Shown here: positions 17,931-20,308 of the stretch, piece by piece | How the letters are laid out: the number at the start of each line of letters is the position of its first letter | How positions within the stretch are numbered: the first letter of the stretch is position 1 | Assembly: GCA_016432365.1 (NCBI GenBank) | Contig: CP066686.1 | Location: forward strand, 192,355-256,354 | Length of the DNA stretch: 64,000 nucleotides | Origin: Candidatus Woesebacteria bacterium | GTDB taxonomy: Bacteria > Patescibacteriota > Microgenomatia > UBA8517 | Direction of reading: 5' to 3' | Notes under the pieces: generated by a model | The model's database searches: none | What the model was told of the DNA's origin: nothing | Seen by the model: only the letters and a program-made list of their open reading frames with translations | Translations under genes and position numbers: made by a program

Positions 17931-18362
17931 TTAGAAGCTGACATCGTAATCAATAGCAGGAGGAGAAAGTTTCTGTTGACTGACATCAAGTGAATTGATC
18001 TGGCTGTTTAGTTCTTTTAGTTTGATCTCAGTTACTGACAATATGTCCCCGCTGGGTGTGGCGATTGGAGTTGTTACTACAAATGGTGTCGGGGTTTTCT
18101 TTGGAGGAATAAACACAACCGGGGCACTTCTTGTACCAAATAATAGCCCCAGTATGATTATTAAAAAAATCAAACCGAACGCCACGGTCACTGGAATAAA
18201 AACCTTCTTATTTGCATAAAATTTGATGAGTATGTTTTTGACAGGAAGTGGAAAAGAACCCCAAACTCTTAATAAGACCGTCTTTATTTTTCCAATAACT
18301 TCTGTAACACCGCCTTTAGGTTTGGGTTGAGTCACGGTTTGGTTGATTTCAGGGTTGTTCAT
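17931..18362 (-). CDS. Hypothetical membrane-anchored protein
   Basis: 143 aa; one TM helix (VTVAFGLIFLIIILGLLFG), Pro/Thr-rich exterior; no recognisable domain. Confidence 0.4.
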   Translation of the reverse strand: MNNPEINQTVTQPKPKGGVTEVIGKIKTVLLRVWGSFPLPVKNILIKFYANKKVFIPVTVAFGLIFLIIILGLLFGTRSAPVVFIPPKKTPTPFVVTTPIATPSGDILSVTEIKLKELNSQINSLDVSQQKLSPPAIDYDVSF

Positions 18363-19171
18363 TGCTGGTTTTTTATATAATTTAATACTTCTGTCAAAAA
18401 TTTATTAAATTGGGAAAGCTGCGGAACTCCCAACCCCAATATCTCAATACTGGCTTCAAAACTACCTTGAGGTGAGTATGATTGGTTGTAAATCTTTTGG
18501 ATCCGGGTTCTTACATCACTCTCATTTTGTTTAAGCATTGAGTCCGTCGCGTCAATGTCTGTCAACCAATGATTAAATGGATTACGGGTAAGTTTCCCCG
18601 TGGCCACCCCCGCGTCGATAGCTGTTTTTAGAGTTGAGTAGACAGCTTCATGCTCATTTCTTAGTGCGATTTCTTCCCCGAGTCCAATGTCCACCAGGGC
18701 TTCGTCGATAGTAAGAAGGGTATTGGCCTTATACCTTGCACGAGCCTCATCACTTCGGCTGAATAAAGTTTCTAAAGAATCGTTGGAATTGTATTTTTCT
18801 TTATCACTTTTATACCAATCCACCTCGGAGTCGATTTTGACAAAAATGTTATTTTTATCTTCACCACTTAGGCCTTTATCCTCAACTATTTTTTGTTTAA
18901 GCATTTGCATGTAGACTGTCATCATTTGATCCCTGGACCTAAGCATATTAAGGGTTTTTTGTCTGGCATCCTCCTTAAGTGAGAGGGTTTTGTTGGCTAG
19001 ATAAGAGTTTTTAGCATCCTGATAATCAGAGTAGGCCTGGTTGTATAAAGTTAGATTATAAAGATGGTCTTGATATGCTTTATTGAAGTCAAAGGTTTGG
19101 GCGTGAATACTAGTACTAAGTACTAAGTACAAAGAGCCAAGTACAAGCGTTGTTAGGACAGCCTTTTTCAT
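18359..19171 (-). CDS. Hypothetical secreted protein with signal peptide
   Basis: 270 aa; N-terminal MKKAVLTTLVLGSLYLVLSTSIHAQ signal peptide; otherwise unassigned; 4-nt overlap with the downstream gene. Confidence 0.5.
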   Translation of the reverse strand: MKKAVLTTLVLGSLYLVLSTSIHAQTFDFNKAYQDHLYNLTLYNQAYSDYQDAKNSYLANKTLSLKEDARQKTLNMLRSRDQMMTVYMQMLKQKIVEDKGLSGEDKNNIFVKIDSEVDWYKSDKEKYNSNDSLETLFSRSDEARARYKANTLLTIDEALVDIGLGEEIALRNEHEAVYSTLKTAIDAGVATGKLTRNPFNHWLTDIDATDSMLKQNESDVRTRIQKIYNQSYSPQGSFEASIEILGLGVPQLSQFNKFLTEVLNYIKNQQ

Positions 19172-19212
19172 ATTTATTTATTTTAACACGACAAACGCAT
19201 TTGAGAGAACTC

Positions 19213-19229
19213 GAGGCCGGAGCGGGAAT
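19213..19229 (-). repeat. 17-nt direct duplicate of the tRNA-Cys 3' end (acceptor 3' strand plus T-stem)
   Basis: gaggccggagcgggaat is identical at 19213-19229 and 19283-19299 (inside the tRNA); copies 70 nt apart. Confidence 0.7.
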
Positions 19230-19283
19230 TATGCGCAAAAATGCAATTCAATTTGCGCTGTCGATTGCCGATTCGGACTTCTG

Positions 19284-19356
19284 AGGCCGGAGCGGGAATC
19301 GAACCCGCGCGATAGAAGTTTTGCAGACTCCCGTGTTTCCACTTCACCATCCGGCC
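19284..19356 (-). tRNA. tRNA-Cys (anticodon GCA)
   Basis: Minus-strand sequence folds as a cloverleaf: acceptor GGCCGGA/TCCGGCC, anticodon stem GGAGT/ACTTC, loop CTGCAAA (anticodon GCA), T-arm GCGGGTTCGATTCCCGC. No encoded CCA. Confidence 0.75.
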
Positions 19357-19417
19357 GTGTAGTCCTATTGTATCTTAAGCTCGACGTTAACTCAAAACTT
19401 TGCTAAACTCGGGGACA

Positions 19418-20308
19418 ATGAAGACTTTTAAGGTTGTTATAGCCACCCTTGTCGCTATATCTTTTTTGACAGTAGCTATATTTTTTTTGATCGGTTTTTT
19501 AAAACCGAAGCAGGCGGGTATAAAGATAGAGACCTTACCTTCAGCCACGATATATTTAAACGGTGTTATTGTGGGCAAAACGCCATTTGAAGGAGTATAC
19601 AAACCCGGCGAGACACTGATTAAATTGGTCCCAGACGGTGACGGAAAGCTACTTCCGTTTGAGACTAAGGTAAAGCTTCTGCCCGGAATAAAAACGTTAA
19701 TACGGCGTGAGTTTGGAACAACGGAGGATCTCTCCTCGGGTGATATAATTTCGTTTGACAATATTTCGTCTAAAGACACTAGCTTAATAGCAATTTCTAT
19801 TCCCGAAAACGCGCAGATATCTCTTGACGGTGTTCCCAGAGGCTTTACACCATACAAAACCTCCGCAATTTCTCCGGCTGAGCATCAAATTACAATTAAA
19901 GCGCCGGGATATAACGACAGGGTGATGAAACTTAAAACTCTTGTTGGCTACCGCCTGACAATTTTTGTTAAGTTAGCAAAAAGCTCTCAAAATGAAACAT
20001 TGGAAAATCCAAAAAATACCTTAGAGCCTGCTGTTAAAAAGTATGTTGAAATACTTAAAACACCCACAGGATTTCTTAGGGTTAGGACCCAACCCGGAAC
20101 AAAAGGTGAGGAAATAGCGGAAGTAAAACCCGGTCAAAGGTTTTTATATTTAGAAACGGACCCCAATACCGCCTGGAACAAAATTCAATATCAGGAACCT
20201 CGTCCCGGGCTTCCCAACGGGATAACGGGCTGGGTTTCCGGTGAATTTTCAAAAGTGGTTGAAGAATCAGCAAATAACGCAACGGGTAGTGCAAATACTA
20301 CAATTTAA
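19418..20308 (+). CDS. PEGA-domain protein with C-terminal SH3b-like domain, N-terminal TM anchor
   Basis: ORF begins at TTG 19400, ATG 19418. Two PEGA-like repeats (ATIYLNGVIVGKTPFEG, AQISLDGVPRGFTPYKT) and an SH3-like GFLRVRTQPGTKGEEIAEVKPGQRF. Confidence 0.6.
   Translation: MKTFKVVIATLVAISFLTVAIFFLIGFLKPKQAGIKIETLPSATIYLNGVIVGKTPFEGVYKPGETLIKLVPDGDGKLLPFETKVKLLPGIKTLIRREFGTTEDLSSGDIISFDNISSKDTSLIAISIPENAQISLDGVPRGFTPYKTSAISPAEHQITIKAPGYNDRVMKLKTLVGYRLTIFVKLAKSSQNETLENPKNTLEPAVKKYVEILKTPTGFLRVRTQPGTKGEEIAEVKPGQRFLYLETDPNTAWNKIQYQEPRPGLPNGITGWVSGEFSKVVEESANNATGSANTTI

What the first reader, a model, noticed from the sequence alone, without database searches (positions are those of the whole stretch)
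19201..19360. tRNA-Cys(GCA) followed by a 17-nt exact duplicate of its own 3' end: possible integration scar
gaggccggagcgggaat is identical at 19283-19299 and 19213-19229. The first copy is inside the tRNA (acceptor 3' strand plus T-stem); the second is 70 nt downstream of the tRNA's 3' end. Duplication of a tRNA 3' end is the hallmark of tyrosine-integrase-mediated insertion or excision at tRNA genes. Only about 53 bp separates the copies, so no element is present now; this looks like a remnant or a hot attB. A 7-bp hairpin (gcgcaaa...tttgcgc) lies between the copies.
Basis: partly seen in the sequence, partly recalled or inferred. Interest (0 to 1): 0.55.

Follow-up and report, generated by a model that had tools for sequence, protein, structure and literature searches.

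The report
Leftover pieces of a rearranged tRNA-Cys gene
The repeated 17 bases are real, but they look like debris from a broken-up second tRNA-Cys copy, at a spot where related bacteria carry a selfish homing-endonuclease gene, rather than a viral integrase scar.

Summary
tRNA-Cys(GCA) lies on the minus strand (19283-19356). Its last 17 nt recur exactly at 19213-19229, 53 nt downstream.

The integrase reading does not hold. No recombinase lies within 10 kb, and no phage, plasmid or viral contig carries a matching attP. The 53-nt spacer is not foreign DNA. It is a decayed, inverted copy of the tRNA's own 3' part, from the 3' end to the anticodon. The locus therefore reads tRNA, inverted pseudo-tRNA, exact direct 3' stump.

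The window comes from a Woesebacteria-like member of the Microgenomates. Its closest relatives (L027, L011) lack exactly this 70-nt segment. Other relatives (L025/L121, L039, L159, L040, L042) carry homologous versions.

In further relatives with the same gene order (GT4-UbiA-PEGA-tRNA-Cys), a 0.7-kb LAGLIDADG homing endonuclease gene occupies the spacer's position. In several of them it is followed by the same stump, which starts in the T loop. All 9 endonuclease homologs I looked up map to this locus, as do four more copies (one partial) in loci from the genome scan.

Best reading (confidence about 0.55): the repeat is a relic of endonuclease-associated replacement or rearrangement of tRNA-Cys. 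This resembles the "mobile ORF" gene hybrids of fungal mitochondria. Why the stump stays exact while the payload is old is unexplained.

The parts
19283..19356 (-). Functional tRNA-Cys(GCA), 73 nt plus 1, CCA not encoded. It is 73/73 identical to the tRNA of the empty-site relative L027.
   Evidence: ARAGORN; Rfam RF00005, 58.1 bits; comparison with relatives.
19283..19299 (-). Repeat copy 1: T-loop ATT, T-stem 3' strand, acceptor 3' strand, discriminator U, plus 1 nt. It lies inside the functional tRNA.
19230..19282 (-). 53-nt spacer, a decayed inverted partial tRNA-Cys (from the 3' end back to the anticodon loop), lying tail to tail with the functional tRNA. The best-aligned core is 19242-19279. 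It is homologous to the spacers of L025/L121, L039 and L159 ('type A').
   Evidence: Local alignment to the reverse complement of the tRNA gives 30/43 identical columns and score 14. 0/500 shuffles reach that score, and 7/18186 53-mers from the window do. Multiple alignments.
19233..19258 (.). 7-bp hairpin GCGCAAA(12 nt)TTTGCGC inside the spacer. By homology its arms descend from the inverted T-stem region and the inverted anticodon-loop motif (TTTTGC). It is not followed by a T run.
   Evidence: no terminator-like site; fold not more stable than shuffles, z = 0.43.
19213..19229 (-). Repeat copy 2: an exact 17-nt stump of a tRNA-Cys 3' end that starts in the T loop (TTCG^ATT). It is contiguous with the native trailer and promoter region of the next gene, as seen directly behind the tRNA in L027 and L011.
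19367..19395 (-). Promoter-like site (TTGAGT-17-TACAAT) upstream of the tRNA.
   Evidence: consensus match only.
18359..19171 (-). Downstream flank: 270-aa ORF with no Pfam domain ('geneX'). It is 88-90% identical in L027 and L011, where it follows the tRNA directly.
19418..20308 (+). Upstream flank: PEGA/SH3 protein gene, part of the conserved GT4-UbiA-PEGA-tRNA-Cys synteny used to identify orthologous loci.

Best explanation
The locus reads, on the tRNA strand: intact tRNA-Cys | inverted, decayed partial tRNA-Cys (3' end to anticodon) | exact direct 17-nt 3' stump | native downstream DNA. I interpret copy 2 as the in-situ 3' stump of an earlier tRNA-Cys copy that was cut off at the T loop. 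I interpret the spacer as the remains of an oppositely oriented tRNA-Cys copy that once lay between the two. The most likely driver is the LAGLIDADG homing endonuclease gene (HEG) that sits at this very position in related Microgenomates. There it arrives together with, or next to, a complete tRNA-Cys gene in either orientation, and it leaves the native 3' end stranded behind it. This is the logic of fungal mitochondrial 'mobile ORFs', which bring a replacement 3' end and displace the native one. In the window's lineage the HEG, and the 5' half of the inverted tRNA, would since have been deleted. What is shown: the anatomy, the empty sites in the nearest relatives, the homologous short versions elsewhere, the locus-specific HEG, and the identical T-loop boundary. 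What is inferred: that an HEG was ever present in this lineage, that the endonuclease cuts the tRNA-Cys T arm, and the order of events.
For: 1) Anatomy. The repeat is exact. The spacer matches the reverse complement of the tRNA. L040, and more weakly L042, also carry inverted tRNA remnants.
2) Empty sites. L027 (tRNA 73/73 identical) and L011 have the tRNA directly followed by the sequence that follows copy 2 in the window.
3) Recurrence. 4 of 26 species-level CPR loci carry a second direct copy 62-124 nt downstream. L121 and L159 from metagenomes do too.
4) HEG at the same position. All 9 looked-up homologs of the L045 HEG (47-60% identity) lie between the PEGA gene and the next gene, beside tRNA-Cys. 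HEG copies, one of them partial, also occur in L015, L018, L029 and L021. They match Pfam LAGLIDADG_3 at E = 1e-8 to 5e-13.
5) The same stump follows the HEG. L165/L166 and L045 have ATTCCCGCTCCGGCCTC, L176 has ATCCCGCTCCGGCCTC, and L167-170 and L021 have GGTTCGATTCCCGCTCCGGCCTC. The stump always begins in or beside the T loop.
6) In L176 and L045 the stump sits next to GAPDH, just as the intact native tRNA does in L041, L013, L034 and L037. In L025 the stump, not the resident tRNA, is followed by CCA, as in the empty relative L012. So the stump is the native end.
7) The tRNAs beside these HEGs are different alleles: the T arm is ATGGG/CCCAT in 5 of 6 co-oriented cases, and the whole tRNA differs in L166.
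8) The mobile-ORF precedent is described in PMC3630166.
Against: No HEG or HEG-derived sequence is detectable in the window. tblastn gives nothing below E = 8, and the whole spacer is explained by tRNA-derived sequence. The resident tRNA in the window is the native allele and is identical in its 3' end to the stump, unlike the HEG-bearing loci. L029, L015 and L018 have an HEG next to a tRNA with the same GCGGG/CCCGC T arm as the stump. A simple 'T arm is the target, changed T arm gives immunity' picture therefore fails. Several HEG loci have no stump (L171, L172, L174, L177, L178, L181). The hypothetical precursor (tRNA, inverted tRNA, HEG, stump) was not observed. The stump is exact while the inverted remnant is only about 70% identical, so the two are not one neutral event of equal age. 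The apparent direct pseudo-tRNA pieces in L088 and L137 are not statistically supported.
Confidence: 0.55

Rival explanations
1. Spontaneous rearrangement without any mobile element. A tandem inversion duplication (direct-inverted-direct) would form by snap-back or template switching at the tRNA's own hairpins (the T arm, the anticodon arm, and the 3' end paired with its trailer), and deletions would later trim it. The HEG of relatives would then merely share a permissive intergenic site.
For: The order direct / inverted / direct is exactly that of a tandem inversion duplication. The junctions fall at hairpin loops: tRNA 3' end, anticodon loop, T loop. L089 shows a plain 45-nt direct duplication starting in the anticodon loop, and its near-identical relative L101 lacks it. 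No HEG trace is present in the window.
Against: The copies are not of equal age: the inverted arm is about 70% identical while the direct stump is 17/17. The same stump boundary occurs directly behind intact HEGs. The type A payload has a single origin yet sits in distantly related hosts, in different downstream contexts, with empty-site relatives. This model also does not explain why tRNA orientation flips and tRNA allele replacement co-occur with the HEG.
Confidence: 0.25
2. The copies are attL/attR-like repeats left by a tRNA-targeting tyrosine integrase element that has been almost completely deleted, or the site is a recurrently used attB.
For: There is a 17-nt direct repeat running from the T loop to the tRNA 3' end, the classic extent of identity blocks at tRNA att sites. 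Relatives have empty sites.
Against: No integrase occurs among 20 ORFs within about 10 kb either side. No attP-like copy is found in IMG/VR, phage or plasmid collections. No occupied site with an integrase occurs in about 40 syntenic loci. The spacer is tRNA-derived rather than element-arm DNA. Every insert is 53-124 nt, with no large remnants.
Confidence: 0.07
3. The stump, with or without the spacer, is kept by selection for a host function. Candidates are part of the promoter or upstream region of the next gene, or a processing or termination signal in a tRNA-mRNA co-transcript.
For: Stumps are exact or carry 1 mismatch in every case, and no intermediate decay is seen, although the payload is old and diverged. 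The stump keeps the native spacing to the downstream promoter.
Against: The closest relatives do without it (L027, L011, L012). The predicted fold is no more stable than shuffled sequence (z = 0.43). There is no terminator and no Rfam family other than the tRNA. Pairing between the stump and the inverted arm is degraded. In the close pair L025/L121 the stump has changed (1 nt) while the 65-nt spacer has not.
Confidence: 0.08
4. The repeat is a scar of the IS-like large serine recombinase unit that inserts at the 3' end of tRNA-Cys in relatives.
For: In L167-169 a serine recombinase gene flanked by 122-nt inverted repeats is inserted exactly at the end of the stump. In L004 a homolog converges on the intact tRNA 3' end.
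Against: That unit makes no duplication of the tRNA end: there is no third copy in L167. Nothing in the window's spacer resembles its inverted repeats, and no recombinase is present in the window region.
Confidence: 0.03

Closest known systems
Mobile ORF elements (mORFs) of fungal mitochondria. These are LAGLIDADG or GIY-YIG ORFs that insert into atp6, atp9, cox2 or nad3 and carry a replacement C-terminus, leaving the native C*-terminus downstream (Allomyces atp6; Glomus; PMC3630166).
   Same: In relatives (L165/166, L176, L045) the order is gene, LAGLIDADG ORF, displaced native 3' end. The native stump matches relatives, while the functional copy is divergent. The endonuclease ORF sometimes reads through into the stump. 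The window would be the ORF-less end state.
   Different: The host gene is a bacterial tRNA rather than a protein gene of an organelle. In several loci a whole tRNA, sometimes inverted, accompanies the HEG rather than only a 3' end. The window has no ORF, and its payload is an inverted pseudo-tRNA. Endonuclease activity and target are untested.
tRNA-gene attachment sites of tyrosine integrases, as used by prophages and genomic islands. The identity block runs from the anticodon loop or T loop to the 3' end (established knowledge, e.g. Williams 2002 NAR 30:866, cited from memory).
   Same: Both show a direct repeat of the tRNA 3' end starting in the T loop, and empty sites in relatives.
   Different: There is no integrase, no attP and no element DNA. 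The intervening DNA is tRNA-derived, and inserts are only 53-124 nt.
Free-standing homing endonuclease SegB in the phage T4 tRNA gene cluster (from memory: Brok-Volchanskaya et al. 2008 NAR; see also PMC13096335, listed).
   Same: Both are free-standing HEGs embedded next to tRNA genes that promote inheritance or rearrangement of the tRNA region.
   Different: SegB is a GIY-YIG enzyme in a phage. No displaced tRNA stumps are described there, to my knowledge.
LAGLIDADG HEGs in rRNA introns of CPR bacteria (PMC7143001; Brown et al. 2015 Nature, from memory) and archaeal rRNA-intron enzymes. The only solved relative found is 2DCH, E = 9e-6.
   Same: They share the protein family and the host group.
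   Different: Here the HEG is free-standing beside an intact tRNA gene and is not inside an intron. No ribozyme or intron was detected.
Tandem inversion duplications formed at quasi-palindromes (Kugelberg et al. 2010 Genetics, from memory).
   Same: Both show the copy order direct / inverted / direct, with junctions at hairpins.
   Different: The copies here differ greatly in decay, and the scale is tens of bases rather than kilobases.

Membership tests
tRNA-targeting tyrosine-integrase element (attL/attR scar) | Direct repeat of the tRNA 3' segment flanking the inserted DNA | tested here: met
   17/17 exact repeat, 53 nt apart.
tRNA-targeting tyrosine-integrase element (attL/attR scar) | Integrase gene in or next to the inserted DNA, here or at the same site in relatives | tested here: not met
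   Pfam scans of 20 ORFs spanning 8.5-29.7 kb found housekeeping genes only. About 40 syntenic loci show an HEG or a serine recombinase IS, and never a tyrosine integrase island bounded by the repeat.
tRNA-targeting tyrosine-integrase element (attL/attR scar) | Intervening DNA derives from a foreign element (attP arms) | tested here: not met
   The spacer aligns to the reverse complement of the tRNA itself.
tRNA-targeting tyrosine-integrase element (attL/attR scar) | A matching attP on a phage, plasmid or other element | tested here: not met
   IMG/VR gave one chance hit inside an ORF. Phage and plasmid collections gave no match.
Homing-endonuclease 'mobile ORF' gene hybrid (replacement 3' end + HEG + displaced native 3' end) | Endonuclease ORF between the functional gene and a displaced 3' fragment | tested here: not met
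   This is not met in the window, which has no ORF and no tblastn hit. It is met in orthologous loci L165/166, L176, L167-170 and L045.
Homing-endonuclease 'mobile ORF' gene hybrid (replacement 3' end + HEG + displaced native 3' end) | The displaced fragment is the native end, contiguous with the native downstream DNA | tested here: met
   Window copy 2 plus its trailer aligns with the tRNA end plus trailer of L027 and L011. The L025 stump is followed by CCA as in L012. The L176 stump abuts GAPDH as native tRNAs do.
Homing-endonuclease 'mobile ORF' gene hybrid (replacement 3' end + HEG + displaced native 3' end) | The functional copy's 3' end is foreign, i.e. divergent from the native stump | tested here: not met
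   In the window the two copies are identical. In L166 they are divergent, 13/17, and the whole tRNA is a different allele; the same holds for L171 and L176.
Homing-endonuclease 'mobile ORF' gene hybrid (replacement 3' end + HEG + displaced native 3' end) | The endonuclease cleaves the ORF-less allele at the insertion point | not testable with these tools
   This needs enzyme assays. Stump boundaries cluster in the T loop (TT^CG^ATT), which is only suggestive.
Tandem inversion duplication | Three copies in the order direct, inverted, direct | tested here: met
Tandem inversion duplication | The copies arise together, so non-selected copies should be equally decayed | tested here: not met
   The inverted arm shows 30/43 identical columns while the direct stump is 17/17. 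Across loci, stumps have 0-1 mismatches and none are intermediate.
Intron in a tRNA gene (group I or other) | The tRNA coding sequence is interrupted, so the mature tRNA needs splicing | tested here: not met
   A complete, uninterrupted tRNA is present. Rfam finds no intron family.

The most novel reading that the evidence does not exclude
The short module (replacement tRNA 3' end plus inverted pseudo-tRNA payload) is itself a non-autonomous homing element. It would spread horizontally among Microgenomates by inserting into the T loop of tRNA-Cys without needing splicing. It would be mobilised in trans by a LAGLIDADG endonuclease family dedicated to this one tRNA gene, whose autonomous form travels with its own endonuclease-resistant tRNA-Cys copy. 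That would explain exact stumps around an old, single-origin payload in distantly related hosts.
Probability: 0.2. Interest if true: 0.75.

Novelty: new variant of a known kind. Interest (0 to 1): 0.5.

Why it matters
tRNA 3'-end repeats are routinely read as integrase att sites and used to delimit genomic islands. This case shows a different route to the same signature. It points to a free-standing LAGLIDADG homing endonuclease family tied to a single tRNA gene across a major group of uncultivated bacteria. That family is associated with replacement, inversion and partial duplication of an essential single-copy tRNA gene. If the endonuclease does cut the tRNA-Cys gene, it would be a bacterial counterpart of the mitochondrial mobile-ORF gene hybrids. 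It would also be a natural enzyme specific for a conserved tRNA gene. For the window itself, the feature is a small non-coding relic with no obvious function.

Tried and rejected
- **Viral attP search with the 17-mer.** It gave one hit inside a coding ORF of a high-GC contig, which I judge to be chance.
- **Phage and plasmid BLAST of the region.** No match.
- **Metagenome scan for non-tRNA copies of the 17-mer.** Only about 10 loci were useful.
- **L021 as the far end of an island.** The flanks are host genes (YkuD, GAPDH, PGK, M23) plus an HEG remnant, with no integrase.
- **Serine recombinase as the cause.** It is an IS-like unit with 122-nt inverted repeats that makes no tRNA-end duplication.
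- **Spacer as a decayed direct tRNA copy.** Not supported for the window (forward score is at null level).
- **Direct pseudo-tRNA pieces with T-loop inserts in L088 and L137.** Suggestive by eye but not significant (p = 0.06-0.45), so I do not rely on them.
- **Spacer 3' end as a leftover of the HEG coding end** (resemblance to L045 'TTTTTTGCGTACACA'). Better explained as the inverted anticodon-loop motif TTTTGCA.
- **Hairpin motif GTCCTGC..GCAGGATCTGGCTC as part of the feature.** It is absent from the window.
- **Known RNA family in the spacer.** Only sub-threshold noise, for example YrlA at 19 bits against a gathering score of 69.
- **Strain polymorphism of the insert.** The only other contig with the same geneX protein is 100% identical.
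- **Literature.** No paper was found that links LAGLIDADG genes to tRNA genes in CPR bacteria; only rRNA introns are described.

Full report
**1. The observation**

The window holds one tRNA gene, tRNA-Cys(GCA), at 19283-19356 on the minus strand. GAGGCCGGAGCGGGAAT occurs at 19283-19299 and again at 19213-19229, and nowhere else even with 2 mismatches allowed. None of 100 shuffles gave two copies.

On the tRNA strand the sequence reads as follows:
- the tRNA, ending ...GGTTCG-ATTCCCGCTCCGGCCTC;
- 53 nt: AGAAGTCCGAATCGGCAATCGACAGCGCAAATTGAATTGCATTTTTGCGCATA;
- ATTCCCGCTCCGGCCTC again;
- GAGTTCTCTCAAATGCG..., running into the start codon of a 270-aa ORF.

The repeat covers the last three bases of the T loop, the T-stem 3' strand, the acceptor 3' strand, the discriminator and one more base. 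A second assembly (L175) is identical over 3.7 kb. The only correction is that 70 nt is the period; the gap is 53 nt.

**2. Context**

The neighbours are ordinary cellular genes: GroES/GroEL, an HhH-GPD glycosylase, an M23 peptidase, a PEGA/SH3 protein, UbiA, a family 4 glycosyltransferase, MetRS and Sua5/TsaE. No recombinase of any kind is found among 20 ORFs from 8.5 to 29.7 kb.

A scan of one genome per species with the tRNA's last 22 nt found 43 loci. The low-GC ones are Microgenomates (Woesebacteria, Collierbacteria, Amesbacteria). Several are MAGs mislabelled as Gammaproteobacteria. They share the order GT4-UbiA-PEGA-tRNA-Cys. The nearest are L011 (Woesebacteria GW2011_GWB1_39_10) and L027, with geneX 88-90% identical.

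**3. Relatives with and without the segment**

L027 (tRNA 73/73 identical) and L011 (72/73) have the tRNA directly followed by the homolog of what follows copy 2 in the window. They lack exactly the 53 + 17 nt.

Other species carry the same kind of structure:
- L025 and L121: 64-nt spacer;
- L039: 61-nt spacer;
- L159: 71-nt spacer;
- L040 and L042: 122-123-nt spacers.

Among 26 species-level CPR loci, 4 have a second direct copy within 300 nt. The spacers of the window, L025/L121, L039 and L159 ('type A') are homologous to each other. They nevertheless sit in front of different genes (geneX, M23, others), and empty-site relatives exist in each context.

**4. What the spacer is**

The 53 nt are not foreign. 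They align to the reverse complement of the tRNA from its 3' end to the anticodon:
- spacer: AGTCCGAATCGGCAATCGA--CAGCGCAAATTGAA---TTGCA
- rc(tRNA): AGGCCGGAGCGGGAATCGAACCCGCGC-GATAGAAGTTTTGCA

This gives 30/43 identical columns and score 14. No shuffle out of 500 reaches that score, and only 7 of 18,186 53-mers from the window do.

L040 shows the same relationship (p = 0.004-0.005), and L042 shows it weakly. The type A alignment fits the inverted tRNA throughout and shares derived states, for example GTCC for GGCC and ATCGAnAGCGC for ATCGAACCCGCGC. The conserved TTTTGC motif just before copy 2 is the inverted anticodon loop.

The locus is therefore: tRNA, then an inverted decayed partial tRNA lying tail to tail with it, then an exact direct 3' stump.

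**5. What sits there in other relatives**

Two isolated copies of the stump (L045, L021) are immediately preceded by a LAGLIDADG endonuclease ORF. A protein search found 2,928 homologs. I looked up nine of them, at 47-60% identity (P0002, P0004, P0005, P0010, P0013, P0046, P0109, P0083, P0045). All nine lie at this same locus, between the PEGA gene and the next gene, beside tRNA-Cys. L015, L018 and L029 from the genome scan also carry the gene. Pfam confirms LAGLIDADG_3. The only solved relative is an archaeal rRNA-intron enzyme.

Two arrangements occur:
- The tRNA and HEG are co-oriented, with a conserved promoter directly after the tRNA (L165/166, L171, L176, L177, L178, L180/181).
- The tRNA is inverted and divergent from the HEG (L167-170, L172, L174, L029, L015, L018).

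In L165/166, L176, L045, L167-170 and L021 the HEG is followed at once by the same stump. The stump starts at ATT, at TCCC or at GGTTCG, that is, in or just before the T loop. In three cases the ORF reads through it. In L176 and L045 the stump sits beside GAPDH, exactly where the intact tRNA's end lies in HEG-free relatives. In L025 the stump rather than the resident tRNA is followed by CCA, as in the empty relative L012.

The tRNAs next to the HEG are different alleles. In L166 the whole tRNA differs, and the T arm is ATGGG/CCCAT in five of six co-oriented cases. In L088 and L137 the stump even lies behind a tRNA-Cys with a different acceptor stem. The stump is therefore the stranded native 3' end, and the working tRNA can be a replacement.

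**6. Interpretation**

The HEG-bearing loci match the mobile-ORF gene hybrids of fungal mitochondria. There, a LAGLIDADG ORF arrives with a replacement 3' end and leaves the native end as a downstream relic (PMC3630166).

The window has the same boundary and the same native-end relic, but no ORF. Its payload is the remains of an inverted tRNA-Cys. This is what would remain if an arrangement like that of L167 (inverted tRNA, HEG, stump) lost the HEG and the tRNA's 5' half while a forward tRNA copy took over.

I therefore read the repeat as debris of HEG-associated replacement or rearrangement of tRNA-Cys, with confidence about 0.55. That an HEG was once present in this lineage, what the enzyme cuts, and the order of events are all inferences.

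**7. What does not fit, and the rivals**

- There is no HEG trace in the window.
- L029, L015 and L018 keep the common T arm next to an HEG, so immunity by T-arm change is not general.
- Several HEG loci lack a stump.
- The stump is exact while the inverted arm is about 70% identical. Across loci, stumps have 0, 0, 0 and 1 mismatches, with nothing between that and chance level. Yet the type A payload has a single origin and sits in hosts whose PEGA proteins are 42-55% identical.

A single old neutral event cannot give this pattern. Either the module spreads horizontally (the novel reading) or the stump is maintained.

A spontaneous tandem inversion duplication at the tRNA hairpins explains the copy order and the loop-centred junctions. 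It does not explain the unequal decay or the HEG-linked stumps (confidence 0.25).

The integrase reading fails on every feature except the repeat itself (0.07).

The serine recombinase unit of L167 and L004 inserts at the tRNA end but makes no repeat (confidence 0.03).

A host function is not indicated. The fold is no better than shuffled sequence, there is no terminator and no Rfam family, and the nearest relatives lack the segment.

**8. Verdict**

This is a real, non-random feature. It is not an integrase att scar. It is a small relic at a tRNA-Cys locus that is a hot spot for a locus-specific homing endonuclease in Microgenomates.

In the window itself it is probably functionless. The wider pattern is, as far as the searched literature shows, undescribed, and is best classed as a new variant of a known kind.

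Noticed in passing
L167 3749-5508 (also L168, L169); L004 70-1627: A large serine recombinase gene (515 aa; Resolvase + Recombinase + Zn-ribbon domains) is flanked by 122-nt, 99% inverted repeats and is inserted exactly at the 3' end of the tRNA-Cys stump. In L004 a 51%-identical homolog converges on the intact tRNA-Cys 3' end. This looks like an IS-like unit that targets the end of this tRNA.
   Followed up: partly
L027 6824-6847; L089 10475-10498; degenerate in L088 about 1290-1320 and in L101: The hairpin motif GTCCTGCnnnGCAGGATCTGGCTC occurs as a 30-nt in-frame insert in geneX of L027, relative to the window. It also occurs just downstream of tRNA-Cys in other Microgenomates. It is absent from the window. 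It may be a small mobile palindromic repeat.
   Followed up: partly
L012 about 1545-1600; also L005, L006, L009, L025, L028, L032, L033, L178: The M23 peptidase gene is preceded in many Microgenomates by a conserved promoter (TTGACTTT-17-TAGAAT). It is followed at once by a conserved hairpin plus T run (AGCGACTCATCCCGCAATTCGCGGGATTTTTT) before the start codon. This may be a leader or attenuator.
   Followed up: no
L003, L004, L006, L007, L013, L015, L025, L027, L028, L033, L039, L041, L042: These MAG records are titled 'uncultured Gammaproteobacteria' or 'Pseudomonadales'. They share the Microgenomates synteny GT4-UbiA-PEGA-tRNA-Cys and a low GC content, so the taxonomic labels look wrong.
   Followed up: no
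L021 5983-6364: The ORF upstream of the isolated tRNA fragment is a chimera of a beta-lactamase-like N-terminal part and the C-terminal 85 aa of the LAGLIDADG endonuclease. It is an intermediate stage of HEG decay.
   Followed up: partly
L089 10300-10590 versus L101 4385-4675: These are two near-identical genomes. L089 has a 45-nt direct duplication of tRNA-Cys (from the anticodon loop to 6 nt past the 3' end) that L101 lacks. The difference is a roughly 150-nt indel that is not bounded by the repeat.
   Followed up: partly
L167 2888-2910 and 3762-3784: The 3' end of the inverted tRNA-Cys and the stump form 23-nt inverted repeats (96%) that flank the tRNA body and the HEG. Recombination between them would flip the cassette while always restoring a complete tRNA. 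This may explain why tRNA orientation relative to the PEGA gene differs between lineages.
   Followed up: no
window 18359-19171 (-): The 270-aa ORF downstream of the feature has no Pfam domain and a signal-peptide-like N-terminus. It is conserved only in the closest Woesebacteria. In most relatives the M23 peptidase gene follows the tRNA instead.
   Followed up: no
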